Of a stretch of 64,000 nt of DNA, positions 16,623 to 64,000 are shown piece after piece. The notes below the pieces were generated by a model, which saw only the letters and a list, made by a program, of their open reading frames with translations, had not been told where the DNA came from and did not search any database. The translations under genes and the position numbers were made by a program. The stretch's first letter is position 1, and the number at the start of each line of letters is the position of its first letter. The stretch is from Mobula birostris (Eukaryota), in assembly GCF_030028105.1 (NCBI RefSeq), contig NC_092375.1, positions 32,339,130 through 32,403,129 of the forward strand. The letters run 5' to 3'.

Positions 16623-17188
16623 CAGACATCCCACCCTGCAAAAACTCATTTCAGGGAGGTAGCACCATCAATTGCGGGAGACTTCCGGGAGAGGTGGGAT
16701 GTCTGCAATAAAGTAGCTCCTTAGCAGCTGGCCAGCTAGTTTAAATAACGTTAGCTATGCCAATGAACGAATGACACCTGTTAAACTCACCTCAACATTT
16801 CTTTTACAGTCTTAACCCACCATGGGCAATAGAAAAGTCACTGTTGCAAACAGTGCAGCGAGCAACACTGTCATCATTTTGATCCCTATTAGGTAGGGGT
16901 ACACTTTAGTGTAGTCTGGGGTGACGTACGTTTTTTTTTGGAACACTCTGCAGTGGCGCACTCTCTCTCTCTCTCTCTCTCTCGTGGTCGCTCGCGTGCT
17001 CTCAAGCGCTCTCGTTTGCTTTCTCTCTCGCTCTCTCTCGTGGTCGCTCTCGCGCTCTCTCTTGCTTTTCTCTCACTCGCTCTCAAAAAAATTGATTTCC
17101 GTGATATTGTATATAATTTGTGGGCATCAGGGAGTCATTACTAATATGTGGGAGACTCTCGGAAGTTCCAGGAGAGGTGGGATGTCTG
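16623..17188. mobile_element. Non-autonomous DNA transposon/MITE with 13-bp TIRs inserted in a CR1 3' fragment
   Basis: CAGACATCCCACC (16623) and GGTGGGATGTCTG (17176-17188), flanking AAATGG direct repeats, an extra internal TIR copy at 16693-16705, and an internal CT-rich microsatellite. Confidence 0.8.
16960..17083. repeat. Degenerate (CT)n/(CTCG) microsatellite
   Basis: Directly visible CT runs inside the MITE. Confidence 0.9.
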
Positions 17189-33689: not shown

Positions 33690-34000
33690 AGAGACACCGC
33701 CACCCCGGACATATTCAAGGCCCACTGGCTCCTTTCCATTCAAGGCAGACCATAAGCCACGTTAAGACACACTGACACCCACCAGCTACTGCTGCTGCTG
33801 CCGCTGCCCCCTCCTCCCGGTACCAGCTGTCCGTCCTCGGCCGCCGCCATCCCTCGCTCCGCTTCCACGTCTGTCCCTCAGCTGTTGCCGTAAACTGACA
33901 CCGGATTTTCCCCGAGTGTCGTGAGAGGAGAGAGCTGCCGTAAATAAACCCCAGGGGCGAGTGGATTTACGGCAGTGTCAGCATGGCTAACGACTGTGGA
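33690..34000 (-). promoter_or_regulatory. TBC1D23 CpG-rich promoter / 5' UTR
   Basis: Local GC and CpG enrichment around the ATG in an AT-rich background. The motif TGCCGTAAA occurs three times (33886, 33936, and reversed at 33966). Confidence 0.7.
33783..33850 (-). CDS. TBC1D23: TBC1 domain family member 23, coding exon 1 (MAAAEDGQLVPGGGGSGSSSSS-W)
   Basis: ATG at 33850-33848 in a CpG-rich patch. The exon is 68 nt and ends TG|GTGGGT (phase 2). It joins in frame to exon 2, giving W-DKELAEAL, comparable to human MAEGED...GWEKDLEEAL. Confidence 0.9.
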
Positions 34001-37000
34001 AGTATTGGCAGTAATCAGGGTGATGAAGGTTTTGGTTTTCTTTATTAAATTGCTCACGTGATGATTATAAAATGAACGTTTCCTCATAATGCCGACAAAA
34101 GAAAGGAAAACAATGACTTCTGGAGAAAAAAAGAGAAAGAAAGTGTTTGTACTCAGCAAGTCAGTGCTACGGAGAACAATCTTTCGGTATTTGTCATTAG
34201 AAACATCTTCACTGCAACCTCGGAGCAATCAGCGAGAAATGTTTTAAAATAGTTACACGTTTTTCCTCTTCATAGATGCTGCCTGATTTGCTAGATTCTT
34301 CCAGTATTTTGTGTGTATAGCTCAAGATTTTAAACACCTATTGTTTCTTCAAAATCAGAACCGAAATTCTGATCAGTTGCCCCGAATCGATAATTGAAGT
34401 TCTCTCCGCAGCCACTGTGAACTTAGCTATTTTTTTTATTGCAGCCCCCCCCCCCGGGAAAAAGTCCTTGAGAGTGTATACCGGTTGTTTAGAGGTCTTC
34501 TGTAATTCCAATTTTGATGTAATCAAGTTAGTTAAGAGCAGAGTAAATACAAACCAGCAACAGTATTAAACGATTCATAATATAGGCATTTGAGACTTTC
34601 AATACAATAGGCGCTTTCTGTTCTTAGGATAATAATTTCTGCATCTGATATTTAGGTAAACTGTTAAAATTATTACTGTAATTTACCTATTGCCCAACTT
34701 AGTGTCGCATTATTTTGTGGAATACCACGGATCTGTTTTCAAATTCTGCTTGTATTACCATTCATTTTTTTGCCTGATCTTCCCCCAAAGTAGATGTGGC
34801 ATACATGCAAAATGTGCTTGGTCTCAGCTATTCCTTTAATGAAACATATTTCAGCCAGTCCTGATACTGTAATAGAAGAAAAGCTGAGTATTAGAAAACA
34901 AGTAGGTTTGAGTAGTACCACACCAAAAATTATGCATTCAGAATGAGAAAAATGGATTAAATTGTTGTTATCAAATGTTATAGAAATTTAATTAAAGCAT
35001 AGCCTTCTTAATCACGCTCACTAGATGTAACTATTGTAGCAATTAAATAGTAGCTATGAAGGAGCAACTTGCTTCTATTCCATTACCCTGTAATTTAAGA
35101 TTTATGTTCTGCAGAAAGCAGAACACATCCATGTGTTCACAGCTGTCAGTTTGAGAAATGATGTAGTAAACATTTAAAATCTTTCAACAAGTCTTGATAA
35201 TTGGTGAAATTGATTGGTTATTAGCATACTCAAATCCAGAAGTAAATGTTGTAGAATAAACACAAGCAAGTTGTAATCTATGCGAAGTATCTATTGCGGA
35301 AGCCTATTTTTGCACACTTAACAATACATGAGAAGATTTAGGGGATTTATAAAATACAAGAGCTTTATGTATACAAGATTTAATTGTACATATGTAAAAC
35401 ATTTGTGTTTGCATGAACTAGGTACAAATTCCTTTATTGAATTATTGTTTAAGGAATAAAGTAAATTTGGAGAAAATTTGTATTTTCAAGTGTTACTTTA
35501 ATTTGTTCATCCACCTTTTATTTGTCCAAAAGGAACCCCTTGTCGTTTTGTTTAGGTAACGTAGACTAGTTGCAGTCTTGTGGCAGTGGGGTTAGAGAAT
35601 AGGGATACGAGGACAAGAATCCAAGCAATTCTTACTGATGGAGGAAACGAATACAACTACATGTTCAATTACTTGTAGATGACATAAATTTAAGGATATT
35701 TGTACATGACAGCCAACAATTAGGACATATGACCCAAGCTAACACTTTGAAAGAAATTCAAATAACTCCATTCTTGGATCCTTTCCAACAAATATTCATA
35801 AAGTATTAAATTTTATTAAAATTTGTTATTGAATCTCTTATCACAATTTAAGACTGCTTACTTTATTTTTACTTACTGCCTGTTATGCTGCTGGGGTTTA
35901 GGGAAGCGATGAAAGTCCTCCTGCACTGTTTATTTCTGATTCTTCATCGCTGTTTCCGTAACAATTGTTTTTTGACTAATCAGGGTTGTTAGCGCTGAGC
36001 TGAACTCCCAAACCTGGTGGAAGGGTGAACCATTCTTAGCCTGGCCTCAACACTTTGACCTGATTGACATGGGTGACCCCACCAAGAGCCAAAGTACAAG
36101 GCTCCAACTCCCAACAACACAGCTGTTTGGGTCATTGAGGCAAGAACCCTCTATGACAGGATTGTGGACCTATTGGAGATCCATATTGTAGCAATGCATG
36201 ATTTATACCTAATGTCATCTCTGCTCCTTTTGCCAATTATCTAAAGTCAATGGTTTCTGCTCTGAAAAGCTTATTACTTACTTTGTCAAATTCATTTCAT
36301 GTTTATCCATTAGTCTCTTTTAGATAGTAATGTAAAAAGTGCCAGTAAATCAGGTGCTATGCCAGGATTAGTGATTTTCTCCTAAAAATCACTCCAGGTG
36401 TCAATTTGGTCTACAATGAAATCCCTGAAATTTAAACTTCATTAGTTCTTGAGAGGGGCATTATCGCATGATTTTGAATACTTTTTCATAACCAATCTAA
36501 ACTTAGCTGTTTACCATTCCGCAAATGAAACATACTCCAGATACTGCTTCAAGCATTTGTTCTGACCTCAATGTAGAAACTTCTGAGAAAGATAGAGATA
36601 CACAGAAAAGACAAAAAAACTTAAGTATTTTTATAAAGATACATAAACAAATCTTGCATTTCTGAAAATTTTTCCCACTCTTATTTTCTCCAATTGAGTG
36701 AAATTATGTACTTTACAAGACTTGAAATTTCATTTACCTATTAGTTAACTGTTCATTCCAATCTGATTGTTTAGAAATGCTACCTTCAGCACAATAAAGG
36801 ACAATTGAGAAGTTAATTCAAACTTGTGTTCAAGTTCATTGTCTCCTGACTGTTCATATATAACCAAATGAAACGTTCCTCTGGACCATGGACAAAGCGT
36901 ATATCACAATCAGCATATAATCGCACCATACATTAATAATATAAATTTAAAATGCAGTGTGCAGCACAGAAAGCAGCTTGCTGTCCTGTCCTTGTGACGA

Positions 37001-38977: not shown

Positions 38978-39098
38978 TCAAGCATTTAGGTAAGATGGAT
39001 TATGTTCTGAAGAACTGCATTCCAGGTCTACAATCATACTATCCAATTCTTCAAGGCAGGGTTTGATCAGTTTGTTTTGCGTATATGCAATTTTCAGT
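38978..39098 (-). CDS. Cut8/Sts1-like gene last coding exon (R-LKIAYTQNKLIKPCLEELDSMIVDLECSSSEHNPSYLNA*)
   Basis: Acceptor tttctgttacAG with matching phase 2, and TGA at 38980-38978. It is followed by unique AT-rich 3'UTR-like sequence with candidate polyA signals ATTAAA (38500-38495) and AATAAA (38038-38033). Confidence 0.82.
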
Positions 39099-40840: not shown

Positions 40841-41067
40841 CTTTTCCTAAGTTGTTTATATTTCTCTAGCTCCAGAGAGCTTCTTTGTAAGGCAGTTGTG
40901 CCCTGAGCTGCTAAAACTGTAAAACACTGTTGTGTACTTTCATTATGGAAGCTATTATCCCAGTGAGGAAGTTCACTGGTATACTGCCACGCAATCAGCA
41001 TGTAGTTTAATGAAGTTTCCCAGCATCCTGCTTGCAATAATATCTTCCCTTGTTCCAAGCATGTTCT
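40841..41067 (-). CDS. Cut8/Sts1-like gene coding exon 6 (RTCLEQGKILLQAGCWETSLNYMLIAWQYTSELPHWDNSFHNESTQQCFTVLAAQGTTALQRSSLELEKYKQLRK)
   Basis: Acceptor tatctttgcAG, donor AAG|GTAAAT, 227 nt, phase 0-2. Contains an LPxWD...H motif. Confidence 0.9.
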
Positions 41068-41534
41068 CTGCAAAGATACAAAAATGTAAAACACTTATGT
41101 TGATTTGAATAAATTTCATATAACTCACCAGAACTTGACTGCACCTTTCTGTGAAGGAAAAGATGCCCAAAGCTTAAATCAGTAGCTTTTGAACCTAATA
41201 AAATAGGTTCCCTATTTTTCTACCATTTGCTTTACTCAGAATTAAGACCATAATGGTGAAAGCATTATATTCTACGTGTAAAATGATTAAACTATATATA
41301 CACACACACATAATAAAAAGAAATATCGATTGTTTCACTTCATTTACATTTTTAACTAACAAAGCCTCTTCACCATGTAACAAGAAGAAAAATAATTATA
41401 CTTGCACCGAACACTCGGTCAAACCAGTAAGCGGAAGATGCATGTTAGGCATTAAAGTTAGAGTGAACCCTCCTCCACCATTTAATTTTTAATTTAATCT
41501 TTAATTTTATTTCTGCATCTGGCCCATTAAAAGA

Positions 41535-42686: not shown

Positions 42687-42848
42687 CTTGAAAACCTGAA
42701 GATGATTACGTGCTTTACGATAGCAGTATGCATCTCTGTTGGAACCCAAGCGCCATCGTGGTATAGAACGAAAAACATTGCTTTTGATTATCTCCAGCTG
42801 TTTCTGAGCACATTTCAAGATGAATGATGGAAGAACCAATTTCACGTC
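42687..42848 (-). CDS. Cut8/Sts1-like gene coding exon 5 (DVKLVLPSFILKCAQKQLEIIKSNVFRSIPRWRLGSNRDAYCYRKARNHLQVFK)
   Basis: Acceptor cctgaaacAG, donor AAG|GTTAGT, 162 nt, phase 0-0. Lies within ORF 42492..42902. Confidence 0.88.
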
Positions 42849-42991: not shown

Positions 42992-43119
42992 CTCATCATC
43001 AATTGCTGGATATTGGCGCAACAGAGTCTGCACTAGCTGAGATGATAGCAAATCTTTTAGTTTGACTTGTAAATTTCCACCTGGCTTAAAATGTAGTCGC
43101 TGTTTCTTGAAAGGTGATT
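42992..43119 (-). CDS. Cut8/Sts1-like gene coding exon 4 (E-SPFKKQRLHFKPGGNLQVKLKDLLSSQLVQTLLRQYPAIDDE)
   Basis: Acceptor cacttttcAG, donor GAG|GTATGT, 128 nt, phase 1-0. It is absent from the ORF track and was read manually. Confidence 0.85.
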
Positions 43120-43298: not shown

Positions 43299-43415
43299 CT
43301 TTCTCACTGCTATTTTCCGAAGGATTTTTATCACTGATGAAAGTTAATGAACACATTCTTCTTCTAGCTCCAAACTTTCTTTTCGTGAGCGACGAGACTT
43401 CAGAAATATCTTGTG
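43299..43415 (-). CDS. Cut8/Sts1-like gene coding exon 3 (A-QDISEVSSLTKRKFGARRRMCSLTFISDKNPSENSSEK)
   Basis: Acceptor tttgttttccAG, donor AAG|GTGTGT, 117 nt, phase 1-1. Contains the basic cluster KRKFGARRR. Confidence 0.8.
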
Positions 43416-45300: not shown

Positions 45301-46159
45301 GAAGCAGTAATTTAACTCCACGATCTTGTGAATGGCGGAGCAGAATTACACTAAGTGAAAGTGGTTGATACATGAACACCTTCAGCTTATTAAGAGCAGA
45401 ACCCGTCACCTTACTGAGAAAGCTTACACAATAATACAAAACACAAAGCAACTGACCCATTTCCAGGAGTTCCCCAGCACTACAGAAGCAAGTTTTCAGA
45501 CAGTTCAGTTCATTCTATATGATGAAACAGCCAAGCACTAGCCAAAAAAACACACACACACCCAAGATAACCAACCAAGACTACTGTTGACCTATTACCC
45601 TGATGACATACTCGCTGCAGCATTGAACACCAGTGCTTTAGAACCATCCACACAACAACTGGGGAACTGTGTACAGTAAAGATCTTATTTAAGGAAGCAT
45701 ATTAAAGCGTTAGAAGATCAGATAAGGGTTACTATGCCAAGACATGAAATGTGCATGTTGTCTTGCGGAGAAGGGGCAGACAAGCAGGACTCCGATCTGC
45801 TGGTGTGTTAGAAGTATGAAAAGAATCTTGAATGAAACCCAAGAAACCTTGACTTCCTTGTAAGGAAAAGTTGGATCATTTCTTGATAGCTGGGGACATA
45901 CCAGCTTACTGCAGGTAGGTAAAAACACACGATCAAGATTATGAGATCACCCATGGCCTTATAAATGGCAAACTGTGACCAAGTGACCTACTCAAACTAT
46001 TAATATGTTTGTACATTGACCTTCTGAGTAAAATCTGTATCTCATGAAACCGCGCCCCCCAAACAAAAAAGAAATAGTGCATTGCCTTTCATTTAGATGA
46101 ATGGGATGACAACTATTGCACTAATGATCACACACACAGAAACCTGATACATATTCAAC

Positions 46160-47452: not shown

Positions 47453-47572
47453 CTGTTGGGTCATTCTCTCTTCTCAGAAAAGACGTTGGAGGAAGATTGG
47501 CATGAAGTGCTGTTAACCCCATTTGTGATCTTGTAGAGTTCAAAATTTCTTCGTAAGACCTGCGAAGATGGA
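47453..47572 (-). CDS. Cut8/Sts1-like gene coding exon 2 (V-HLRRSYEEILNSTRSQMGLTALHANLPPTSFLRRENDPT)
   Basis: Acceptor tttttccctctcAG, donor CAG|GTGATT, 120 nt, phase 1-1, open in frame with exon 1. Confidence 0.75.
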
Positions 47573-49621: not shown

Positions 49622-49685
49622 CAGCAATCTTAGGCTGAGGGTTTGGAATTTCCACCAGAACTTGCCTTAGGTTTTCGGGAGCCAT
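49622..49685 (-). CDS. Cut8/Sts1-like gene coding exon 1 (MAPENLRQVLVEIPNPQPKIA; D-box RQVLVEIPN)
   Basis: ATG at 49685-49683, strong donor CTG|GTGAGT, phase 1. An upstream acceptor (ttcgattttAG at 49697-49696) implies a non-coding first exon. Confidence 0.75.
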
Positions 49686-49929
49686 TAATATACTCCTAAA
49701 ATCGAAATAAGTGAGTGTTTAAGAGACCTTACTTACTGGGAATTAAAAAAGGAAAGATGCCTAATGAAAGCCTGGTCTTTTTCCTCACAGTTTTTCCTGA
49801 GTAATGCAAACTAAGTTGATGCAAATTTTCTCTTCATAAATTACAGTTTATAGAATTTATTCCTCTTTTCCCCCTCCCGCTCTACCCACTTCTTGCCTTC
49901 CACTACACTGAATGATGGACTTCTCACGA

Positions 49930-50070
49930 TTTACCAAACCTTTCCAATGTAACAAAGTGAAAATTGCCGCGCGGGCGGAGCTTCCTGAACTTCATCCAAT
50001 AAGATCATCGCACAAAGGTAGAGGAAACATTCACTGCACACTCATCAGTGGTTTTTGACCGGAACTGCAA
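49930..50070 (-). promoter_or_regulatory. Probable promoter / non-coding first exon of the Cut8-like gene
   Basis: CCAAT at 49944 and 49996, E2F-like TTGCCGCGC (49964-49972), GC box GGGCGG (49973-49978), ETS cores (CTTCC 49981, CCGGAA 50059), and candidate minus-strand donors after 49940 or 49935. Confidence 0.5.
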
Positions 50071-52219
50071 TCGTCTGCTTGCATGTATGTTTCACAAAGG
50101 AAAGGGATTTTATAATTATCTTCTGTTAAAGTTAATCGTTAATTTATCAATTACGCAAAAGGACTTGTGAAGTTTCAGAGTGCAAATGAAATTTAGGGAT
50201 GAAGAAAGCCGATCCTGCATCAGGTCGGAAAGTATCTGTGACGAGGCAGATAAAATCAACGTTTCAAGTGGATGAGCCATCCTTTCTAATTGCAATAGAG
50301 AGATGTTAAGAAATGAAGAGTTTATAAACAATTACAAAGATAGGGAAAGAACTGGAGAGCAGAGGTCAAAAACGAACCTATAAGGAAAGGAATGTTGGCA
50401 AGATAACTGAGGTGATAAGAGGCTATAGAAAATGAGAAGGAGGCCCAGACGAGTTGCAAATGGGGAGGGGGAGACGGAGTAAAGCAAAGGAAATCTGGCA
50501 AGCTGGAAGTAATTTAGTGGCCCAGATATAAGAAGGGTTTGGATGCAGACCTCGGGAAGCTGGAACACTCTGGCATCCACAGAGGAATTTCCTAACAAAT
50601 CACTCATACCTTCTGTCTCTATCTCTATCTATCTATTTCTATCTCAGTCTATAGCAAGCGCATTAATTGGTTAACCACACACTTTTAGGTTAGAAAACAC
50701 TGAGTCTTTTACTCTGTGCTTTAACAAGTTTCCCTTTTGTCTTAGTCCAACATGTCCTATGTCCTACATTTTCCTACTTCTGGAATTTTAACTAGAGGAA
50801 TCATCTCTTTAATATCTATCCTGTTAAACCCCCACAGAATCTTGAAATATTCTCAAATCAAATTGTTGTTTATTCTTCTAAACCTCTTCTCATAGGATAA
50901 TCCCTTAATCCAAAAGTCAATACAATCTATGCTCTTAATTATTCAAGTACTAATTCAAATATAGGTGACAAAATCTACACATTGTTTCCAGGAATGATAT
51001 AAAGTTTTCCATGATTCCCGGTTTCTTGAACTCTTAACTTCTTTGCAATGAGGAGCAATGTATTTTCTTTCCAAAAATGTTTGTTATCTACATGTTGACT
51101 TTCTACATTTCATAACTAGTATGCCAAGAACCCCTATAAAGGCATTATTATTAACTTCTGTGGAGCCAAGTATGGTCTGTGGAGAAAAAAAGAACTCGTG
51201 TTTCAAGAGTGAATTATTAACTCTGCTTCTGGGCCATGTTTAAGGGACAAAAAATTCTTTCTTGTTTGTAAATCCTTACATAATTACATCATATATAATT
51301 ATATATGGATCCACATGGGAATTCTGTACTTTGACCTGGGGTTTCCAGTTACTACTGATCATTAAGGATTCTTTGGGACTTAACTGTGAACTCCAGCAAA
51401 CCCATCTCAGGTCTGGACCTGCATTCCTGAAGCCTGTTGGAAATTAAATTTTCCATTCTTGACTTCTCAATGTCTATCACAGGACTGAAGTCAGTGTTCA
51501 ATATCCATTAAAAGCCTATCAACCCACAGTTTTCTTAATTGGACATTTTCCCCATTGTTTTGGGACTTCATGCAAGGACTCCATTCAGTTTTTCTAGTTT
51601 CCCCAGCTGCTCCTTAAGTATTCCAGTAAAAAAATCTACGCTGGTACATCCAAGGTATCTTAATTTTTTTCCTCAGCTTTGATTTCACCCCTACAACTGT
51701 TGATGAGTTTTTGATGTTTGTTCCATTTCGTGCACTTTTCTTTTCAACCCCTCCCCTACCATGCCGAACAAGGATTACATTCCCCCGGTTCTCACCTTTT
51801 ATCCCACTAGCCTTCCCCAGATGGTAGAACCCAAATACAGATTGGATGACTGCTTTGCAAATGGAGCTGAGGTAGATTTGTCAATATAGGACGAACATTG
51901 GTTCACTCAGAAACTCAAGCTTGGTGAAGATATGATAGCAAGAGTAAGAAATCACAGGAGGAGATAGCTTTAGGTTCCCTAACATTAGTCATACTGTAAG
52001 ACAGTATAATTCAAGAAATAATGAAAGTTTGCAAAGAAAATAGTTTATTTTTGCCAGAGTTTAATGCAACCACATGCAAAGATTCAGAACCATTCTTCTT
52101 TTCGCTGGGGATATTAATGTTGAAATGAAAAGTTTTGACTCGAAATCCCGACAAACCATTTCCCTCCATGGGAGTCTAAGTTCTTCCAGCTGTGTTCTTC
52201 CAGTTTTTTGTATGTTGCT

Positions 52220-52530
52220 ATCTACTTCCGGCGTCATCTGGTTACCCTGGAAATCAGTAGTTTCATATTTAGCGCAACAGTTTCAACCGGTGGTGCTATA
52301 GAAGTGAATGAGGGAGATTCTAAATAATTTACTGCAAATTCAGTAAAAGTCTTAAACACAGTGAGGCATTATTGCGGCTGTCAACCTTGCCGTTGACCTC
52401 TCTACGTCGATTTTATATTATTAGGTCTGGTCCGCATCGTGTGGAAAGTGCTTTCCATATCAGGAGTTGAAGCCACGCTGCCCACAGGCGGAGGGACGCA
52501 GCGTGACTGTATTTAGAGGCAAGGTAAGTG
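52220..52530 (+). promoter_or_regulatory. Promoter and probable non-coding first exon of an unidentified plus-strand transcript
   Basis: ACTTCCGG (52224), CGTCA (52232), X-box-like GTTACCCTGGAAAT (52241-52254), CpG enrichment over 52370-52830, and a consensus donor AAG|GTAAGT at 52523/52524. Confidence 0.5.
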
Positions 52531-53049
52531 AGGGTTCTCATTCCTGGCAAATAGGGCCCAGAAAACCATGTGTTTTTGAAAGGTTTTACGTGTAACCTCC
52601 CACCCAAGCTTTGTGTGTTAAATAGTCGTATTTATCAAGCCGCCGATTGGAGGATTGAGTCTCAGCGCTGCTTTTATATCACGCCTAGGAAATTATACGT
52701 TCACCAGAAGACTGTATTGTAATATTGGTTCGTTTTGCAAGCCCCAACAACAGCTCCCAGTATTACGAGGCACGTTGGGTGGCGTATTAGCTAGTTGAAA
52801 TCAGTAGAGCAGACCGGGATAACCGCGAAGAGTGGATGGATCTGTTTTTCTGCAACAGCTTGAGTTATCTAGAGTCCCAGAGTAATACTGCACAGAAATA
52901 GGCCCTACGGCAACAAATTGGTCCACGCTTGTCTCCATTAGCCCCGGCTATAGCAACCTCACACATCAGTATTTGGATAGTAAATGATTGCAATAACAAT
53001 ACTATTTAGAAATGATGTTATTTTTCAGTCGTATTTTTGAAAGATTAAT

Positions 53050-56000
53050 ATCAAGAGGCAAGGGGATTAAGAAGTCAGCTCAGGGCTTCCCTGTGGACAT
53101 TCCTCTCAGCAACAAGTATACCTCTTTGGATACTTCTGGGGAGGATGACCCATCAGATCATGCAGCAGCAGCAGCAGCCAGGCTGATGTCACTCCAGCTG
53201 GTTTCTGAGGCTCAACAGAGAGGGATAAAGTCAGGTAATGCAGTCGTCATAGGGGACTCGATTGTTCGGGGGACTGAAAGGAGATTCTATGGCCGCAAAA
53301 GAGACACCAAGATGTTGTGTTCCCTCCTGGATGCTAGGGTCCATGGTGTAACGGAGCAGCTGCAGGATATTCTCAAGGGGGAGAGGGAGCATCTAAGAGG
53401 TCCTACGCAGTGAGTACATAGAGTTTAGGAAAGAGGCTAAAGAGACGGACCTCCCAGGTAGTAATCTCGGGATTACTCCGTGTGCCATGGACTAGTGCAG
53501 GTAGGAATGGGGTGATAGCATGGGTGAATGAGTGGCTGCGGAGATGGTGCAGGGAACAGGATTTCAAGTTGTTGGATCATTGGAACCTTTTCTGGGGAAG
53601 GTGTAATCACTACAAGAGGGACAGTTTGCACCTGAACTGGAGGGGAACTGATATCCTGGCTGTGAGATTAGCAGGTACTTCTCAGGAGAGTTTAAACTAG
53701 TTGGCAGGGTCTGGGAACTAGAGCCCCAGGTTAGTAAGTTAAGAATCGGACTTGTAGGTAGATGCCAAGGAAAGTATTGAAAGGCAAAATTGAAATAACA
53801 GATATGATAGGTTGGACAGATTGAAGTGTGTTTACTTAATGCTGGGAGTATTTTGGTTAAGTGTAATGAATTTAAAGCATGGATCTCTACATGGAAGTAC
53901 TGAAACTTGGTTGAGAGAGGAGCAGGAATGGGTGATTAATGTAATATGTTTTTGAAATTTTAGAAAAGATGGAGGAAAAAGAGGTGGGGGATTTGTACTA
54001 CTATTGATGGGATTGTACTACAGACCCCCTAATCGCCACTGGGGCATTGCAGAACAGATATGTAAACAGATTAAGGAAATGTGTAAACATAATAGGGTTG
54101 TTGTCATGGTGGATTTCAACTTCCCTGTTATAAACTGGGATATTCTTAGTGTAAGGGGTTTGGAAGGGGCAGAATTTGTTAAATGGATCCAGGAAGGTTT
54201 CTGAAATCAAAATGTGGATGGTCTAACAAGAGGAGGGGCTGTACTGGACCTGGTGTTGGGTAATGAGCCTGGCCAGGTGACTGACCTTTCATTGGGTGAA
54301 CAGTTAGGGAACAGTGACCACATCTCTTGAACGTTAGGACTTCCATCGATAAGGATACCTATGGTCCTTGTGAGATAGTTTTAAATTGGAGTAGGGCAAA
54401 ATACAATGAGCATTCGGCAGGAACTAAGAAGCGTTTTTTGGGAACACCTATTTTCTGGCAAGTCCACATCGCACATGTGGAGGGTGTTTAAAGAGCAATT
54501 GCACAGAGTACAAGAACGGTATGTTTCTGTTAGAAACAAGGACGGGAATGGAAAGATCTCCAGAGAGGTGATGAATTTAGTCAAGAAGAAAGAGGAAAAG
54601 TACGTAAATCTTCAGAAATTAGGATCAAACAAAGCACACAACGAGTATAAAGAAGACAGTAAAGAACAAAAGAAAGGAATTAGGAAAGCCAGGAGCGGCC
54701 ATGAGAAGGCCTTGGCAAGTAGGATTAGGGTGAATCCCAAGGCATTTTATGCATACGTCAAGAGTAAGAGGATAACTAGGGAGAGAGTGGAACCACTCAA
54801 GGATAAAGGGGAGAACATTTGCTTGGATGCAGAGATGTGTGTGAAGTCCTTGATGAGTACTTTGCTTCTATATGTACCAAGGAAAGGGGATATGGAGAAC
54901 CAAGAGATCAGTATTGAGTGTATAAATATGTTAGAGCGTTTAGAGGCCAAGGAGGAGGAAGTGTTGGCCCTCCTAATGAGTATTTAGGTGGATAAGTCCC
55001 TGGGGCCTGATGGGAATTACCTCAGGTTATTGAAAGAGGCAAGAGACAAGATTGCTGGGCCCTTGAACAGTATCTTCGTGTCTTCTGTAGCCACAGGTGA
55101 GATTCTGGAGGATGGTGAGTGGCTAATACTCTGTCTAAGAAGGGAACAAGGGAAAATCCTGGGAACTGTACACCAGTGAGTCTGACACCAGCTGCAGGGA
55201 AATTGCTGGAGAAAGTTCTTAGGGGTAGGATATATGAGCATTTGGAAACCCATGGCCTAATTAGGGAGAGTCAGCATGGCTTTCTGCGTGGCAGCTGGTG
55301 CCTTACCAACCTGGTTGACATTTTTGACAAGGTACTGAGAGAGATTGATGAGGGTAGGGCAGTGGATGTTGTCTACATGGATTTTAGTAAGGCATTTGAC
55401 AAAACCCCTCATAGGCTAATCCAGAAGATTAAGGTGCATAGGATCTGTGGTGAATTGGCTGTTTGGAATCAGAACTGGCTTGTATATAGAAGACAGGGTA
55501 GTAGTTGAAGGAATTTCTTCAAGCTGGAAATCTGTAAGTAGTGGAGTTCTGCAGGGATCTCTGCTGGGACCTCTGCTGTTCGTAATGTGTATAAATGACC
55601 TGGATGAGAATGTAGATGGGTGGGTTAGTAAATTTGTGGATGATACCAAGATTGGTGGAGTTGTGGATAGTGTAGAACAGTGGTCCCCAACCACTGAGCC
55701 GCGGACCGGTACCAGGCCACAAAGATGTGCTACCGGGCCGCGAGGAAACGATATGATTTGGAGATATGAAACAATGTGAGTCAGCTGCACCTTTCCTCAT
55801 TCCCTGTCACGCACTTGAACTCGTCGTTCCCCCCCCTGTTGGCCAGACCACAAGAATATCATCAATATTAAACTAGTCTGCGGTGCAAAAGAGGTTAGGG
55901 ACCCCTGGTGTAGAAGACTGGCAAAGAATACAGCACAATATAGATCAGTTGTAGATGTGGGCTAAGAAATGGCAGATGCAGTTTAACCCAGATACATGTG

Positions 56001-56650
56001 AGGTGTTGCACCTCAGTAGGGCAAACGTAAGCCAACAGTATACCGTTAGGGTGAGATCCTTAACAGTGTTGCTGAGGAGAGAGATCTTGGGATCCAAGTT
56101 CATTACTCCTTGAAAGTGGCCACACATGTCGATAAGGTGGTTAAGAAGGCTTATGGTATGTTTGTTTTTATTAGTCGAGGCACTGAGTTCAAAAGTCAAG
56201 AGGATATGTTACAACTTTATAAAACTGGTTAGGCCTCATCTGGAGTATTGTGTGCAGTTCTGGATGCACAGATCTGATAGAAGTTTACAAGATTATGAGA
56301 GGCAGAGATAGAGTGGATAAAGAATATCTGTTTCCCAGGGTTGAATTGTCTAATAACAGTGATGATGCATTGAAGGTGAGAGGGGGTATGCTGAAGGGGG
56401 ATATGAGGGGAAGGTTTCTTACTCAGAGAGTGGTGGATGCCTGGAATGCACTGCCTGGTATGGTGGTAGAGCAAATACATTGGAGGCTTTTAAGTGACAT
56501 TTGGATAAGCACATGGATGTAAAGAAGATGGAGGGATATGGACATGGTGTAGGTAAGAGGGATTAGTGTTTTGGGTGTTTTTGATTTTTTTTTAGCTGGT
56601 TCTGCACAGCATTGCTGACTGAATGTCTTGTTCTTGTACCGTGCTGCTCT
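53050..56650 (+). mobile_element. Near full-length degenerate CR1 LINE (ORF1 SGNH esterase, ORF2 EN-RT)
   Basis: IPLSNKYTSL, VIGDSIVRG and DSLHLNWRG (ORF1); YYRPPN, DFNFP, GNSDH, DKSLGPDG, QHGF and KFVDDTK (ORF2); CR1 3' UTR. Confidence 0.92.
55678..55907 (+). mobile_element. 230-bp hAT-Charlie MITE inserted in the CR1 RT domain
   Basis: TIRs CAGTGGTCCCCAACC / GGTTAGGGACCCCTG and a perfect 8-bp TSD GTGTAGAA (55670-55677, 55908-55915). Both ends match the ends of 23808-25775 in reverse. Confidence 0.93.
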
Positions 56651-57012
56651 ACATGGTTAAGATTTGTTGAACAGCTTTTTCTACAATGCTTCATTTATTT
56701 CAATCTTTCTCTGTTATACTTTTATTATTCGTAAGACAATGAATACACGTAAATAAGGACATCATTTTTTCCTTAGAAGTCCATAATTATTTTTACTAAT
56801 TTATTAATCAATGATAATCTCTGCTCAAAATTACCATGGCACATGAGAGAATTTCTTAGATCATTACCAATTCAGGCACACATTCTCAAAAAGGTTCACC
56901 ACCCCTGCTCCAAGCACTCACCTCCCTCTGTGTAAAGAAGTTAGATTTTTTTGCACTGTTTCTTCATTTGTGTATTTTTTAAATCATGAATAAAGCCTAT
57001 TTTTGAAATAAA

Positions 57013-57600
57013 AGATGTGGTCAGCACAGGAGGTCCTGCAGACACCCTATGAGGGGAATTCTATTGATACGCGGAGTGATTCCCTGAACAAATTGTCCAA
57101 ACCATCTGGCAGAATGCCTCTTCACCAGATCTCATCAACAAGCACCAAGACCTTGGCTAGTGGTGAGAGGGGCCACTCACAGTTAGATCTTTCCCCGTAT
57201 CACCCCCAACGCACGCTGCCCTTCGGATGGCTGCGCTGGAAGAGAGACGGTCACCCATCTCTGCAGACTGTGAATTTGCCCAGAGGGTGTAAAGAAGGAT
57301 GCAAGGGTCTGTGTCCTAATGCATCTCCAGCAGTTCCTTAACAGAGGTCTCCCTGGTCTGTGGGATGTCCCAGAATCACACATCGAGACAGGCATTAAGT
57401 GCTACTGGAAAGACGTCAACTCGGAGAAACAAGCTGTTTGGTCTGCTCGAAACTTGTTGGTCTTCCAGCACAGTCTGTATGGGAATGCTGCATGATTGGC
57501 ACAGTCCGGCTGCAGGAACATGCAATGTGGAATGCACTGAAGCTCAGCGCAGCCAATGCTAAGGTTCGGTGGGGAAGGACCACAGTCTAGGTTCCTTCTG
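57013..57600 (+). mobile_element. Tx1/L1-like LINE 3' fragment
   Basis: Frameshifted CPSDGC..ETVTHLSADC CCHC finger and WSARNLLVFQH. Confidence 0.6.
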
Positions 57601-58079
57601 CTCCTATGCACAGAAGGTCTAAGTAGGAGAGAAGAGTGTACGAAGAAAATATAGTGGGAGCATTCCTGAACAAGAAATCACTTAAATTTTTAAAACAAAA
57701 TCAGAAACTGCTAGAAATCTTCAGCATGTTAGGCTGAAGAACAAAAAAGATAATGTTTCAGGCTTGACATTTCATCATATGAAAAGTTATAAACCAAATG
57801 CACTGTAAAATGAAAACGAAGAGAGGACAAACTGAATGCGAGAGATGCAGTGCAGGCAATATGGTGACTAAATGACACTTGTGATGGTCGTGCTGACAGG
57901 GTGAGGTTGGCGAGGGTTTGTTAACGGCTGCTGATCGACCTGGGGATGGATGACAACAGAGGAATGAAGAAATAGCTTGAACCATAATGTCCAGTTGCTG
58001 AAAATGTGAAATACAACAGCATGCTGGGAAGGTCTTCCACTGAGACCATATGGGCAGATCTCAGAAATGAAAAAGGTGC

Positions 58080-58790
58080 TAACACTTGTTATTGGGATTG
58101 TACTGTGGCTCCCAATGGCTAGTGGGAGATATATGTGGGTAGATTATGGAAAGATGATAAAGCAACAGAATTGTCATAGTAGGTGACTTAAATTTCCTTA
58201 ATATGGACTTGGTCCTCCTGAGTGCAAGAGGATTAGATGGGTCAGATTTGTTAGTTGCATCCAAGAGGCTTTCTTAAAACAGGATATAAATAGTTTCAAA
58301 CAGTGACAGGGCCATACAGTACCTTGTGTATTTGGAAGTGAGCTTGGCCTGGTGCTTAGAATTTCAGTGGGAGAGGAATTTGGGAACAGAAATCACAACT
58401 TTGTGGGAGGTTGGGGGAGGCAGTGTTAAATTTTGGACAAAGTAATTTACATCATTACAAGGCAGAGTAGATTGGGAGCAGCAGTTATTGGGCAAGTCCA
58501 TGTCTGACATGTGGGAGTCATTTAAATTCAAGATGATCAGAGCTCAGAATTGGCATGTTCCAGTGAGGAAGAAGGACAAGGGTGGCAAGAGTTAGGAATC
58601 TTGGAGATGTGGCAAATTTAGTTAAAAGGAAAAAGGAAGCATGCGTAAGCTTTCAGAAGGTGAAATCAGTCAGGGCCCTTAAAGAATATAAAGACAACAG
58701 GAAAGAACTCAAACAATGAATCATGAGAGCAAAACAAAATGACCTTGGTGAATAGGATTAAATAAAATTCCAAGGCATTTTATACATACA
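58080..58790 (+). mobile_element. Degenerate CR1 ORF2 (endonuclease region) fragment
   Basis: Parallels 54000-54750 (ataggtgacttaaatttcc, caagtccatgtctgacatgtgg, ccaaggcattttat). Confidence 0.7.
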
Positions 58791-58964
58791 TTAATCTCCC
58801 TAATCCCTAATGCACTGGAAAACTGATATAAAATGCTTGTATATATTATAAGGATGAAATTGGTTTAAAGAAATATGATCACACATGAAGTTATTTTCAT
58901 GTATAGAAGGTCTGAGGTGATCTTAGGATAAAGGTTGTAAAACTGACCAATATGTCAAATTTAT

Positions 58965-60590
58965 AACACTACAGCACAGAATCAGACCCCTTGGCCCACC
59001 TAGTATGTGCGAACTATTAATCTCCCTAATCCCTTTGAGCTGCACCTGGACCGTAGCCATCCATATTCCTCCCATTCATGTACCTATCTAAATTTCTTCT
59101 AAATATTGAAATTCCACCCACCACCACCACTTGCACTAGTAGCTCATTCCACACTCTCACCACCATCTGAGTGAAGAATTTCCCCCTCCTGTTCCCCTTA
59201 AATATTTCATCTTTCATCCTTAATCCATGACCTCTGCTTGTAGTCCCACCCAACCTCAGTGGAAAAAACCTGCTTGCATTTACCCCAGCTATACTCCTCA
59301 ATTTTGTGTACATCTGCCACTTCTGTGCCCATTCTCCCAATTTGTCCAAGTCCTTCTGCAGACTCTCTGCTTCCTCAATACTGTATTACCTGCCCTCCAC
59401 TTATCTTTGCATCATCTGTAAACTTGGCCATGGAGCCATCAATTATGTCATTTAAATCGGTAATGTATGACTTGAAAAGAAGCTTCCCAATACCAAGCCC
59501 TGTGGAACACCACTTGTCACTGGCAGCCGACCTGAATAGGCCCCCCTTATTCCGACTTTCTGCCTCCTGCCAATCTGCCAAGCTTCTCTCCATGCTAGTA
59601 TCTTTCCTGCAGCACCATGGGCTCTTAGCTTGTTAAGCAGCCTCATATGCGGCACCTTGCCAAAGGCCTTTTGAAAATCCAAGAAAACAACCAACTGAAT
59701 TTCCTTTGTCTATCCTGCCTGTTATTTCCTCAAAGACTTCCAACAGATTTGTTAGGCAAGATTTCCCCTGAAGGAAATCATGCTGACTGTGGCCTACTTT
59801 ATCATGCAGGCTGAAACCTCATCCTTAATAATGGATCCCAACATCTTCAACTAACTGGCCTATAATTTCCTTCCTTCTGCCTCCCTCCCTTCTTGAAGAG
59901 AGGAGTGACATATGCAATTTTCCAGTCTTTCAGAACCATTCCAAGATCTAGTGATCATTGCCAATGCCTCTACAATCTCTTTAGCTACCTCTTTCAGAAC
60001 CCTTGGGTGACTTGTTTACCATCAGACCTTTCAACTTCCCAAGCACTTTCTCTTTCACAATAGCAACTACACTGACTTCTGTCCCCTGACATTCTTGAAT
60101 ATTTGGCATACTGCTAGTCTCTTCCACAGTGCAGACTGATGCAAAATATTTAAGTTTGTTTGCCATCTCTTTGTCTCCTGTTACTACCTCTCCTGCATCA
60201 TTTTCCAGCTTAATGATATCTGCTCTCGCTCTCTTTCTACACTTTATGTATCTGAAAAAAAAACTTCTGGTATTCCCTCTGATATTTTTGGTTAACTACC
60301 TTCATATTTCATCTTTTCTTATGTTTATTTTAGTTGCCTTCTGATAGTTTAAAAAATTTCCCAATCCTCTAACTGCCCACTAATACTTGCTATATTATAT
60401 GCCTTCTCTTTCGCTTTTATGCTATCTTTGACTTCCCTTGTCACCAATGGTTGCCTCATCTTTCCTTTCGAATACTTCTTTATTTTTGGGATGTATTTAT
60501 CCTGTGCCTTCTGAGTTGCCCCCGAAACTCCCGCCTTTGCCGTTCTACCATCATCCTTGCTCGTGTCCCCTTCCAATCAACTTTGGCCAG
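58965..60590 (-). mobile_element. Degenerate CR1 LINE with internal deletions
   Basis: LDFQKAFGKVPHMRLLNKL, KFTDDAKI and WNELLVQVV; related to the 1800-3000 copy. Confidence 0.85.
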
Positions 60591-61169
60591 CCCCTCTCTC
60601 CTGTGTACCTCCAACTCTCTTGTACACCTCTATCAAGCTGTCTCCCATTCTACTTTTCTCCAAAGAGAAAAGCCTCAGCTTGCTGTGCTCCACATGGACA
60701 TGATTGCTTGAAGGGCCAGTTTCTGTGCTGTATGATTCTATATAAAGTGTTTTGGGACATTTTTGCCAAACTTATTCGGGACCTCAGTCGACACAAACAT
60801 TGGAGAGGAAAATTGGATCAGCCATGATGAAATGGCGGAGCAGACTCAATGGGCCAAATGGCCTAATTCTGCTCCTTTATCTTATGATGTTATGGTGTAT
60901 TTATTGTACATGGAAGTCCTTGGAAAAGATTGATGTGGCAGATGCACTTGAGAAATGTTAATGCAATAATGTTCATTTGCCAGCAGGTGGTAGTGTTGTA
61001 TTCTGTATCGTAAGTAGTTGTAGTGCATCAGACAATTGTGTCGAATTTTATGTATTGTACTGCCAATGTCCCCACCCATTCACATTTATCTGAGCCAGAT
61101 GCAGAGGACTGCTTGTGCTGATAACTTTGACACTCAAATGTTTAAAATAAAACTCACATTTTAAAAAGC

Positions 61170-62402
61170 AGGGCCTTATTAGGGATAGCTAGCATAGCTT
61201 TGTGAGCGACTGGTCATTTCTCACAAACTTGATGCGTTTATGAAGATGATTGATAAGTGTAGGGCGGTGGATATTTTCTTCAAGGAATTTAGTAAGGCAT
61301 TTGACAAGGTCCCTCAAGACAGGCTGATGCACAAAATTAAGATGCATGGGATCCACTATCACTTGGTAGAATCAATTTAAAATTAACCTGGCCACAGAAA
61401 ACCGAGTATAGTGAATCAGAATCAGGTTTATTACCACTGTCTTACCACAGTAAAATTTCCTGTTTTGGGGCAGTGGAAGTGTGATGTTATTCTTCAGGAG
61501 TTTTGTGATAAGCAATGTTCCACAGAGATCTGTGTTATTTTAATTATATGAGTGATTTGGATAAAATATAGATGGGTTGACGCAAGTTTGCAAATGACAC
61601 AAACATTGGTGGTGAAGAAGGTTGTCACAGATCACCTGCAGACAGCATGAAGAAATGGCAGACAGAGCTGAATTCAGGCACATTTGATGTGTTGCACTTT
61701 GGGAGGACACTAAGAGAACTGGATGTACTGAGGGGTCTTGGGGTTCAAATCTATAGTTCCCTGAAAGTGGCAACACCTGTAACGTGTGGTAAAGAAGGCA
61801 CATGACATGCTTTCTTTCATTAGTCGTGCCGTTGAGTGTATAAGACAGGAAGTTATGTCGCAGCTGCATAAAACATTGGTTAGGCCGTGTTTGGAGTATT
61901 GAGTTCATTGTAGGAAAGATGTGAAGGTTTTGGAGAAGGTGCAGAGGAGGTTCACAAAAACCTTGCCTGGATTAGAGAGTAGAGGTTAAGGGAGAAGTTT
62001 CTCTGCAGTGTTGGAGGCTGAGGGGAAATCTGATTGATGTTCATAAAATGATGCGAGACACAGATAGGCTAGATAGAGTCAAGCCACTTTCGCAGATTTG
62101 GAATGTCTATACTGGAGCATATACATTTAAGGTGATAGGAGGAAAGTTAAAAGGAGAGATAGAGGACAAGTTTATTTTAATACAGAGAGAGGTAGGGCTG
62201 TGAAACATTCTGCTGGAGTGTTGGTGGGAGAAAATACAACAGTGGTGTTTCAGAGGTGTTTAGACAGGCATAAGAGCATGAAGGAAATGGAAGGATGTGA
62301 ATCGTGCATTCACATGGGAGTAGTTTCACTTGGCATCATGGTTGGCAAAGACATTGTGGGACACAGACTATATTCCTGTGCTGTACGGTTCTGTGTTCTA
62401 TA
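61170..62402 (+). mobile_element. Highly degenerate CR1 LINE 3' half
   Basis: 'tttagtaaggcatttgacaaggtccc', 'gtgcagaggaggttcac', and tail ttctgtgttcta. Confidence 0.75.
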
Positions 62403-62920
62403 ATTTTAAATACTATTTGTAAATGAATTAATTAAGCACATGAAAACACTAGGAAATAATTAAAAAATTGAAGTACCATTGGTTTAAAAAAAACTTATTT
62501 TCTCCTAATCTTCAGCCTTAGAATCCCTATTTAGTTGAATGGGCTTCAATCCAATGCCATAGGAACTGAGAAACTACTTTTCCAGCATGAAGTAGAGCGA
62601 TGGAATTTATTTGTGTGGAAGCTAAGGAATCCTATCACTTTCATTCTGGACTTTGATGTCTTTTTTTTTGCATTACTTTTTGTGATATTATTTGATCCAG
62701 TGGACCATAACTGCAGAAGGTGTGGAGAAAGGTTAATTTGAGAATTCATTACAGCTGTATTTCACATTTTCTGATTTATTCCTTCAGGATAATCATGGAT
62801 GGATGTGATATCATTAGTTACCACCTCAAGTGGAGCTTGTGGTTATCAAAAAAGCGTCATTATCTCCATGTTGACTTTTGTTATGAATGTTCTGTTATGG
62901 AGAAGCAGGAGCATGAGTGA

Positions 62921-64000
62921 TCAACACACATCAAAGTTGCTGGTGAACGCAGCAGGCCAGGCAGCATCTCTAGGAGAGGTGCAGTCGACGTTTCAGGCTG
63001 AGACCCTTCGTCAGGACTAACTGAAGGAAGAGTGAGTAAGGGATTTGAAAGTTGGAGGGGGAGGGGGAGATCCAAAATGATAGGAGAAGACAGGAGGGGG
63101 AGGGATAGAGCCAAGATCTGGACAGGTGATTGGCAAAAGGGGATACGAGAGGATCATGGGACAGGAGGTCTGGGAAGAAAGACAAGGGGGGGGGACCCAG
63201 AGGAAGGGCAAGAGGTATATTCAGAGGGACAGAGGGAGAAAAAGGAGAGTGAGAGAAAGAATGTGTGCATGAAAATGAGTAACAGATGGGATACGAGGGG
63301 GAGGTGGGGCCTTAGCGGAAGTTAGAGAAGTCGATGTTCATGCCATCAGGTTGGAGGCTACCCAGACGGAATATAAGGTGTTGTTCCTCCAACCTGAGTG
63401 TGGCTTCATCTTTACAGTAGAGGAGGCCGTGGATAGACATGTCAGAATGGGAATGGGATGTGGAATTAAAATGTGTGGCCACTGGGAGATCCTGCTTTCT
63501 CTGGCGGATAGAGCGTAGATGTTCAGCAAAGCGGTCTCCCAGTCTGCGTCGGGTCTCGCCAATATATAAAAGGCCACATCAGGAGCACCGGATGCAGTAT
63601 ATCACCCCAGCCGACTCACAGGTAAAGTGTTGCCTCACCTGGAAGGACTGTTTGGGGCTCTGAATGGTGGTAAGGGAGGAAGTGTAAGGGCATGTGTAGC
63701 ACTTGTTCCGCTTACAAGGATAAGTGCCAGGAGGGAGATCAGTGGGGAGGGATGGGGGGGGAACGAATGGACAAGGGAGTTGCGTGGGGAGCGATCCCTG
63801 CGGAATGCAGAGGGGGGGGGGAGGGAAAGATGTGCTTAGTGGTGGGATCCCGTTGGAGGTGGCGGAAGTTACGGAGAATAATATGTTGGACCCGGAGGCT
63901 GGTGGGGTGGGAGGTGAGGACCAGGGGAACCCTATTCCAAGTGGGGTGGCGGGAGTATGGAGTGAGAGCAGATGTACGTGAAATGGGGGAGATGTGTTTA
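62921..64000 (-). mobile_element. Penelope-like retroelement (GIY-YIG endonuclease end and terminal repeat), continuing past the window edge
   Basis: The minus strand at ~63630-63500 reads TFTCESAGVIYCIRCS*CGLLYIGETRRRLGDRFAEHLRSIR, followed by a pyrimidine-rich 3' region and 'gatgctgcctggcctgctg'. Confidence 0.88.

What the first reader, a model, noticed from the sequence alone, without database searches (positions are those of the whole stretch)
49641..49667. Canonical APC/C destruction box at the N-terminus of the Cut8-like protein
Residues 7-15, RQVLVEIPN, fit the full D-box consensus RxxLxxIxN (compare cyclin B RTALGDIGN) and sit in an N-terminal, probably disordered tail. As I recall, fission-yeast Cut8 turnover is attributed to other E3 ligases (Ubr1/Rhp18). 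Inference: the vertebrate version may be timed by APC/C, linking nuclear proteasome re-import to mitotic exit in an open mitosis.
Basis: partly seen in the sequence, partly recalled or inferred. Interest (0 to 1): 0.75.

Follow-up and report, generated by a model that had tools for sequence, protein, structure and literature searches.

The report
Conserved destruction box on animal Cut8
This ray gene encodes a relative of the yeast protein that brings proteasomes to the nucleus, and it begins with a short sequence matching the cell-cycle 'destruction box', kept in fishes, a lamprey and many invertebrates, which likely lets the mitotic ubiquitin ligase APC/C remove the protein after cell division.

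Summary
Observation confirmed. 49667-49641 (minus strand) encodes RQVLVEIPN, residues 7-15 of a 312-aa, seven-exon Cut8/Sts1-family protein, 306/312 identical to a Mobula hypostoma protein. Public contigs show this exon spliced to exon 2. R1, L4, E6 and I7 are kept in 83 of 83 jawed-fish relatives. RxxLx[DE][ILV] occurs in 30 of 84 more distant tails (shuffles 1.7), whose flanks are only 6% identical; unselected positions 3 and 8 also follow the published D-box profile. A real APC/C-recognised D-box is likely. One oddity: the box sits in a lysine-free zone (1 Lys in 810 residues after it in distant relatives), so a docking or pseudosubstrate role remains open. The link to proteasome re-import is untested; the box would more plausibly switch the adaptor off after import than trigger import. 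No tetrapod relative was seen. My searches found no paper on a Cut8 D-box, and a 2026 paper says vertebrates lack Sts1. This scan noted the gene and its tag before, in another shark genome.

The parts
49641..49667 (-). Predicted APC/C D-box, residues 7-15 (R1, V3, L4, E6, I7, P8, N9)
   Evidence: translation, chance; conservation; consensus in PMC5717348
49622..49920 (-). Exon 1: at least 235 nt of 5' UTR, then codons 1-21 from the ATG at 49685; holds the box and the near-invariant Lys19 (49631-49629)
   Evidence: Lys at box position 13 in 82 of 83 fish
47453..47572 (-). Exon 2 (120 nt); holds the rest of the second conserved block (PxPQPKI-x4-RRSY-x2-IL, residues 14-32), which likely corresponds to the invertebrate SPDE-x-II-x-x-RGRR motif
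   Evidence: junction seen; the correspondence is my reading of alignment A3
43299..43415 (-). Exon 3 (117 nt); variable linker with a basic cluster, residues 73-81 (43383-43357), candidate first half of a nuclear localisation signal
   Evidence: the NLS role is inferred
42992..43119 (-). Exon 4 (128 nt); residues 102-109 (43117-43094) hold the protein's only S/T-P site (a full CDK consensus) and a second basic cluster; start of the Pfam Cut8 match
42687..42848 (-). Exon 5 (162 nt), Cut8 domain
   Evidence: E=1.3e-4 for this exon alone
40841..41067 (-). Exon 6 (227 nt), core of the Cut8 helical bundle
   Evidence: (E=3.9e-11 for this exon alone)
38978..39098 (-). Coding part of exon 7 with the stop codon; the contigs run on unspliced to at least 38500

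Best explanation
The motif is a conserved, full-consensus D-box sequence in the predicted-disordered N-terminal tail of a Cut8/Sts1-family protein, and it likely works as a degron that APC/C would use to ubiquitinate and remove this presumed proteasome-import adaptor in late mitosis and G1. Shown here: the motif, its spliced exon, the family membership and the deep conservation. Inferred steps: (1) R7, L10, E12 and I13 dock in the D-box groove of the coactivator, Cdh1 more likely than Cdc20; (2) ubiquitin goes on lysines that start only at the second motif and in the basic/CDK-site region further along the tail (Lys19, then Lys73 onward in this protein); (3) importin bound to those basic clusters, or CDK phosphorylation, shields them until the cargo is released in the re-formed nucleus; (4) the adaptor is then destroyed, so its level peaks at mitosis and falls in G1. 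On this view APC/C ends the import or tethering phase; it does not start it. The confidence given is for steps 1 and 4 (D-box-dependent destruction); the whole chain including proteasome re-import I put at about 0.3.
For: Fits the published consensus RxxLx[D/E][hydrophobic]xN at P1, P4, P6, P7 and P9 (PMC5717348). R1/L4/E6/I7 in 83 of 83 jawed-fish clusters. Extended pattern in 30 of 84 distant tails (shuffle mean 1.72, max 5 of 500 shuffles; reversed pattern 1 of 84) and 21 of 48 tails that are probably whole (shuffle 0.34); 27 of the 30 start within 40 residues of the N-terminus; core identity to the ray protein 30%, identity of the 20 residues after the box 6%. Positions not in my pattern follow the D-box profile: P3 is A/V/P in 23 of 27 (background 0.19), P8 is S/T/P in 23 of 27 (0.31), P2 acidic in 1 of 27, matching the structural rules in PMC3690534. 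Proven D-boxes share the odd positions: human Skp2 RKHLQEIPD, Clb5 and Cdc5 have Pro at P8; Xenopus cyclin A1, Cig2 and Cut2 have Val at P3 (supplement). Only 18 of 74 proven boxes have Asn at P9 (PMC3315528). Distant tails are rich in full CDK sites (259, shuffle mean 38, max 53), as in cell-cycle-regulated proteins. Importin shields HURP and NuSAP1 from APC/C (PMC9686011) and shields Sts1 from the proteasome (PMC10808114). The functional analogue AKIRIN2 peaks in mitosis and falls in G1 (PMC12979645).
Against: No binding or degradation data. 54 of 84 distant tails lack the extended pattern (27 of 48 among probably whole tails; about ten of those carry variants such as T/S at P1 or Asn at P6, and about 16 show nothing similar). 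N9 is not conserved (0 of 71 ray-finned fish, 1 of 27 distant). Val at P3 and P5 is bulkier than the preferred A/P/S and G. No KEN box and no ABBA-like motif in the protein, so the degron would act alone. The box sits in a lysine-free zone: 1 Lys in 810 residues after the box in the 27 distant carriers (shuffle of the rest of the tail 50, minimum 24), first Lys 36-110 residues from P1, whereas by my hand count 24 of the 65 rows printed in the proven list have a Lys within five residues after P9. Both yeast proteins and AKIRIN2 are turned over without APC/C. In jawed fish the box is fused to a longer invariant block, which could serve another partner.
Confidence: 0.66

Rival explanations
1. The box binds the coactivator but is not mainly a degron: it is a docking or pseudosubstrate site, as in Acm1, Mes1 or Emi1. 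The lysine-free tail would let the adaptor sit on APC/C without being ubiquitinated, either damping APC/C or holding proteasomes next to it.
For: Lysine-free stretch around the box of 48-118 residues (median 70) in all 27 distant carriers; 2 Lys in 1,215 N-terminal residues while Arg is common. Lysine deserts protect ubiquitin-system components from unwanted ubiquitination (PMC10169902, abstract). Inhibitors carry D-boxes of the same look (Acm1, Mes1, Emi1). The title of Tatebe and Yanagida 2000 (seen in a reference list) ties Cut8 to destruction of cyclin and Cut2.
Against: Tails without the box are equally lysine-poor (3 of 1,215), so the desert may serve the adaptor role and not the box. 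Jawed fish keep one Lys 12 residues after P1 in 82 of 83. Known inhibitors use several motifs (KEN, ABBA, ZBR) and this protein has none. The distant tails still hold 2-14 lysines further on.
Confidence: 0.17
2. The conserved residues bind something other than APC/C: a phosphatase (PP2A-B56, LxxIxE type, consensus recalled), an importin, a proteasome subunit, or the protein's own helical domain.
For: In jawed fish residues 7-32 form one conserved block with invariant P16, Q17, R25 and Y28. 12 of 83 fish have Glu at P9, which makes an exact LxxIxE. Several distant relatives keep L4/E6/I7 but not R1. The low-confidence Sts1 model folds its N-terminus back on the bundle (PMC10808114).
Against: Outside jawed fish the box and the second motif are separated by a variable spacer (29-65 residues in most carriers), so they are separate modules. 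The Glu needed for B56 is absent in this protein, in 71 of 83 fish and in 26 of 27 distant carriers. The conserved positions are exactly those that contact the coactivator, and proven D-boxes without Arg at P1 exist (Sgo1).
Confidence: 0.14
3. Chance match without function.
For: RxxL alone arises in 68% of shuffled tails, and short motifs give many false positives (PMC3315528).
Against: 83 of 83 fish and 30 of 84 distant tails against 1.7 expected; carriers are scattered over the whole quick tree.
Confidence: 0.03

Closest known systems
D-box of human Skp2 (RKHLQEIPD, residues 3-11; He et al. 2013 supplement, PMC3690534)
   Same: Near the N-terminus; R1, L4, E6, I7 and P8 identical; a proven APC/C degron in that list.
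   Different: Skp2 has His at P3 and Asp at P9; unrelated protein; the ray motif is untested.
Cyclin B1 and Hsl1 D-boxes (RTALGDIGN, RAALSDITN)
   Same: Full RxxLx[DE]IxN pattern; the lamprey relative P0144 reads RQALSDISN.
   Different: The ray motif has Val at P3 and P5 and Pro at P8; its Asn is confined to cartilaginous fish and lamprey; lysines are scarce around it.
Schizosaccharomyces pombe Cut8 (PDB 3Q5W/3Q5X) and Saccharomyces cerevisiae Sts1; Pfam PF08559
   Same: Pfam E=1.1e-23; profile A3 finds Cut8 at E=5.4e-20 over chain residues 27-238; Cut8 is the top fold match, E=1.8e-4; basic clusters lie just before the helical region in both.
   Different: The animal proteins add a tail of about 60-170 residues with the box, a second motif and CDK sites. 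The part of Cut8 shown has no RxxL ahead of the helical region (its first 26 chain residues were not shown; Sts1 was not examined). Cut8 turnover uses Rhp6/Ubr1, Sts1 turnover needs no ubiquitin.
AKIRIN2 (vertebrate proteasome import adaptor)
   Same: Short-lived, NLS-bearing, needed after open mitosis, peaks in mitosis and falls in G1.
   Different: Unrelated in sequence; binds the 20S ring; degraded without ubiquitin.

Membership tests
APC/C D-box degron | Arg at P1 and Leu at P4 | tested here: met
   R7, L10; 83 of 83 fish
APC/C D-box degron | Acidic P6 and aliphatic P7 | tested here: met
   E12, I13; 83 of 83 fish; 30 of 84 distant tails against 1.7 by chance; rule from PMC5717348
APC/C D-box degron | Small residue at P3 | tested here: met
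   Val here; A or V in 83 of 83 fish, A/V/P in 23 of 27 distant; Val occurs in three proven boxes, though A/P/S are preferred
APC/C D-box degron | Asn at P9 (preferred, not required) | tested here: inconclusive
   Present in this protein and 12 of 12 cartilaginous fish, absent in 71 of 71 ray-finned fish and 26 of 27 distant carriers; only 18 of 74 proven boxes have it
APC/C D-box degron | Lies in a disordered, accessible region | tested here: met
   By prediction only: no regular structure at residues 1-27, block pLDDT 54-65
APC/C D-box degron | Conserved island with divergent flanks | tested here: met
   6% flank identity in 27 distant carriers; not met within jawed fish, where residues 16-35 are also conserved
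APC/C D-box degron | Acceptor lysines within reach | tested here: inconclusive
   Lys19 in fish (82 of 83); first Lys 36-110 residues away in distant carriers
APC/C D-box degron | Binds Cdc20/Cdh1 and confers motif-dependent destruction | not testable with these tools
Cut8/Sts1 (PF08559) | Cut8 domain by sequence | tested here: met
   84.5 bits against a cut-off of 26.2, residues 102-293; E=5.4e-20 to S. pombe Cut8
Cut8/Sts1 (PF08559) | All-helical fold with short helices followed by a six-helix bundle | tested here: met
   Model helices 117-305; top three fold matches are Cut8 chains, TM 0.58-0.59 by target length
Cut8/Sts1 (PF08559) | Bipartite nuclear localisation signal in the N-terminal tail | tested here: inconclusive
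   Basic clusters at 73-81 and 105-108 align with basic clusters of distant relatives; importin binding not tested
Cut8/Sts1 (PF08559) | Homodimer | tested here: inconclusive
   See Tried and rejected
Cut8/Sts1 (PF08559) | Binds the 26S proteasome and is needed for its nuclear localisation | not testable with these tools
   Shown for yeast proteins; a fly homologue is reported; nothing for fish
PP2A-B56 docking motif (LxxIxE, consensus recalled) | Glu five residues after the Leu | tested here: not met
   Asn here; Glu in 12 of 83 fish, acidic in 1 of 27 distant carriers

The most novel reading that the evidence does not exclude
Animals rewired the ancient Cut8/Sts1 proteasome adaptor to the mitotic clock: a D-box set in a lysine-free tail couples it to APC/C, so that APC/C itself governs when proteasomes are re-imported into, or tethered in, the re-forming nucleus, or the adaptor even docks proteasomes onto APC/C. 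Fishes would run this pathway beside AKIRIN2, and tetrapods would have lost it.
Probability: 0.25. Interest if true: 0.8.

Novelty: new variant of a known kind. Interest (0 to 1): 0.52.

Why it matters
Recent papers state that Sts1 has no vertebrate homologue (PMC12979645) and that among animals one has been found only in Drosophila (PMC10520889). Here the family is present in sharks, rays, ray-finned fish, lamprey and many invertebrates, and it carries a regulatory motif that the visible part of fission-yeast Cut8 lacks. If the box is a working degron, the ligase that feeds the proteasome at mitotic exit would also control the protein presumed to place the proteasome, which gives a direct, cheap test of how cells with an open mitosis restore nuclear proteasomes. 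The motif type itself is ordinary; the interest lies in where it sits, its age and the lysine-free context.

Tried and rejected
No whole genome is held for this window, so paralogues in the same animal were not searched; in the quick tree the 11 jawed-fish rows form one clade (careful search unfinished, 91 rows, lamprey left out for short coverage). Two other candidate exons (45846-45908, 41129-41148) were tried and dropped: the seven-exon model matches the named protein and the 527-nt spacing in the contigs. One search counted redundant cluster members; I redid it on the 149 representatives only, leaving out 63 without a starting Met or with a tail under 60 residues and 2 of ray-finned-fish type. 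No KEN or ABBA motif. PP2A-B56 motif rejected. Homodimer prediction of residues 112-308 gave no verdict (score 0.00, mark 0.32) and is no evidence either way. No listed run is on record as RNA. No complex with Cdc20/Cdh1 could be folded, since no coactivator sequence was at hand. Tetrapod or lobe-finned relatives: none among the named hits or the 30 clusters looked up; this is weak evidence (word-based search, capped candidates, most representatives unnamed, 50% clusters can hide them). Literature: 'Cut8' with 'D-box' 0 papers; with 'destruction box' 1, on Ams2, seen as listing only; with 'Drosophila' 20 and with 'proteasome' and 'vertebrate' 15, none by title or abstract start on a Cut8 degron of this kind. 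Takeda et al. 2011 and Budenholzer et al. 2020 are not held, so their alignments and supplements, which may already show animal homologues or this motif, were not seen. The ESM Atlas added only arthropod-dominated Cut8 clusters. The downstream exon of the antisense transcript was not found in the window.

Full report
The observation. Window 49641-49667 on the minus strand reads RQVLVEIPN, residues 7-15 of a frame that starts at 49685 with an in-frame stop 12 codons upstream. Seven exons (49685-49622, 47572-47453, 43415-43299, 43119-42992, 42848-42687, 41067-40841, 39098-38978) with GT-AG introns give 312 aa, 306 identical to Mobula hypostoma LOC134347912, P0001; the window is therefore from a closely related ray. 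Contigs of runs X1 and X2 carry exon 1 (to 49920 and 49875), exon 6 and exon 7 with no differences and exactly 527 nt, the length of exons 2-5, in between; in X2 and in X5, a second study, the letters past the donor are the start of exon 2. The exon is thus spliced into a transcript; translation is inferred from conservation. The bare RxxL means nothing (68% of shuffled tails), but the full pattern occurs once in 127,996 six-frame codons and in 0.11% of shuffled tails.

The protein. Residues 102-293 match Pfam Cut8 at E=1.1e-23. A profile of 34 animal and unnamed relatives finds S. pombe Cut8 at E=5.4e-20 (the fish-only profile gave only 0.023), and the AlphaFold2 model's three best fold matches are Cut8 chains. 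Residues 1-116 are low in confidence, with no regular structure at 1-27 and one helix at 28-37. Membership of the family by sequence and fold is met; proteasome binding is not testable here.

Conservation in fishes. All 83 clusters (12 cartilaginous, 71 ray-finned; a few are isoforms) have R1, L4, E6 and I7; P3 is always A or V; P8 is Pro in 79. Asn at P9 is in 12 of 12 cartilaginous and 0 of 71 ray-finned fish.

Conservation beyond jawed fishes. The profile search gave 267 proteins, of which 150 were listed. Of the 149 new ones I kept 84 (63 lacked a starting Met or a 60-residue tail, 2 were ray-finned-fish type). RxxLx[DE][ILV] is in 30 of 84 tails (shuffle mean 1.72, max 5; reversed and scrambled patterns 1 each) and in 21 of 48 tails judged whole by a criterion blind to the box (shuffle 0.34). 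27 of the 30 start in the first 40 residues; their cores are 30% identical to the ray protein, the 20 residues after the box 6%. Named carriers are sea lamprey, the hemichordate Ptychodera, a horseshoe crab, a damselfly, a prawn, a sandfly and the soldier fly; 30 clusters were looked up, the rest are unnamed. Positions outside my pattern follow the published profile: P3 A/V/P in 23 of 27, P8 S/T/P in 23 of 27, acidic P2 in 1 of 27 (rules in PMC3690534 section 7, and PMC5717348 passages). In these animals a variable spacer separates the box from a second motif, so the long fish block is best read as two modules that have come together. Against: 54 of 84 tails lack the extended pattern; some are truncated models or variants (Arg-less starts in two cnidarians; Lingula, Priapulus and a wasp with partial boxes), but about 16 of the 48 probably whole tails, and the predicted proteins of a sea cucumber and an annelid, show nothing similar. 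Carriers are scattered across the quick tree, which fits an old motif with losses; the tree is unrooted and unfinished, so I do not date it.

Fit to proven boxes. In the list of He et al. (supplement part 1) the nearest is human Skp2, RKHLQEIPD, also near the N-terminus; Pro at P8 and Val at P3 each occur in several proven boxes. Only 18 of 74 proven boxes have Asn at P9 (PMC3315528 passages), so loss of N15 does not refute the reading. Ile is the best residue at P7 for Cdc20 binding (PMC12401543 passages). Misassigned D-boxes are typically buried in folded domains (PMC9713472 passages), which is not the case here.

An unexpected feature. The box lies in a lysine desert. In the 27 distant carriers there is 1 Lys in the 810 residues following the box (shuffle of the rest of the tail 50, min 24) and the Lys-free stretch is 48-118 residues long; lysines begin only behind the start of the second motif. 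Tails without the box are equally poor (3 of 1,215). Jawed fish have one near-invariant Lys (residue 19 here; 82 of 83), followed in cartilaginous fish by a median of 64 Lys-free residues. APC/C uses lysines near degrons (PMC6927175 passages), and deserts protect ubiquitin-system proteins (PMC10169902 abstract). This either confines ubiquitination to the basic/CDK region, where importin or phosphorylation can gate it, or means the box docks without being a strong degron.

How it most likely works. Shown: motif, exon, family, conservation. Inferred: the box binds the coactivator groove; importin on the basic clusters shields the acceptor lysines, as for HURP and NuSAP1 (PMC9686011 passages) and Sts1 (PMC10808114 passages); after release in the new nucleus APC/C, probably with Cdh1, destroys the adaptor. 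Destruction at anaphase onset by Cdc20 would remove it before the envelope re-forms, which is why I favour a later, gated event and read APC/C as the off switch.

What is known. Fission-yeast Cut8 is regulated by Rhp6 and Ubr1 (PMC5674884 passages; Rhp18 is recalled only); Sts1 and AKIRIN2 are degraded without ubiquitin. PMC12979645 says no Sts1 homologue exists in vertebrates (passages); PMC10520889 and PMC8961600 name only a fly homologue (passages). Databases, however, already assign PF08559 to these fish proteins and name some invertebrate ones as Cut8/STS1. Searches for Cut8 with D-box or destruction box found nothing relevant; two primary papers were not held. No tetrapod relative appeared, which is weak evidence of loss.

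Verdict. A real, deeply conserved D-box-type motif on an under-recognised animal branch of Cut8/Sts1: a new regulatory variant of a known kind, easy to test, with its function still predicted. Interest 0.52.

Noticed in passing
P0090, P0110, P0107, P0194, P0111, P0121: Acropora, Nematostella and some unnamed relatives begin directly with a box lacking Arg (M-x-x-[LM]-x-[DE]-[IL], e.g. MSAMKDITN), close to the Arg-less Sgo1 box; the free N-terminus might stand in for the Arg.
   Followed up: partly
P0218, P0222, P0229; P0113, P0117, P0136, P0139, P0168: Lineage variants: a wasp group keeps R1/L4/I7/P8 but loses the acidic P6; another group has T or S at P1 with Arg moved to P2.
   Followed up: partly
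distant relatives, 29-65 residues after the box: A second conserved motif, [ST]P[DE]E-x-[IV]I-x-x-RGRR, often followed by [VIL]TWSP; the lysine-free zone ends just behind its start in all 21 carriers that have it. In jawed fish the spacer is gone and the RRSY block abuts the box; RRSY resembles an Aurora/PKA site (recalled consensus).
   Followed up: partly
window 49940-50000: Just upstream of the longest 5' end seen (49920): two CCAAT boxes (49944, 49996), a GC box (49973), a relaxed E2F-type site (49964) and a CDE-like CGCGG (49970) without an exact CHR element, the look of a cell-cycle promoter.
   Followed up: partly
window 49895-50015 and 52423-52525, + strand: One contig of run X4 is spliced (GT..AG) across this promoter on the opposite strand: an antisense or head-to-head transcript; 52201-52800 is CpG-rich.
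   Followed up: partly
window 49837-49811, minus strand: One 8-codon upstream ORF in the 5' UTR, out of frame with the main ORF.
   Followed up: no
PMC10897318: ZSWIM4 is described as having a cut8/STS1 domain, and ZSWIM8-like clusters appear as weak Atlas neighbours (0.78): a possible distant link between Cut8 and the ZSWIM ligase adaptors.
   Followed up: no
window 1-39000 and 50000-64000: The long ORFs elsewhere read as broken LINE-type reverse transcriptase fragments, by eye; CpG-rich patches at 16801-17100 and 33601-34200 may mark other promoters.
   Followed up: no
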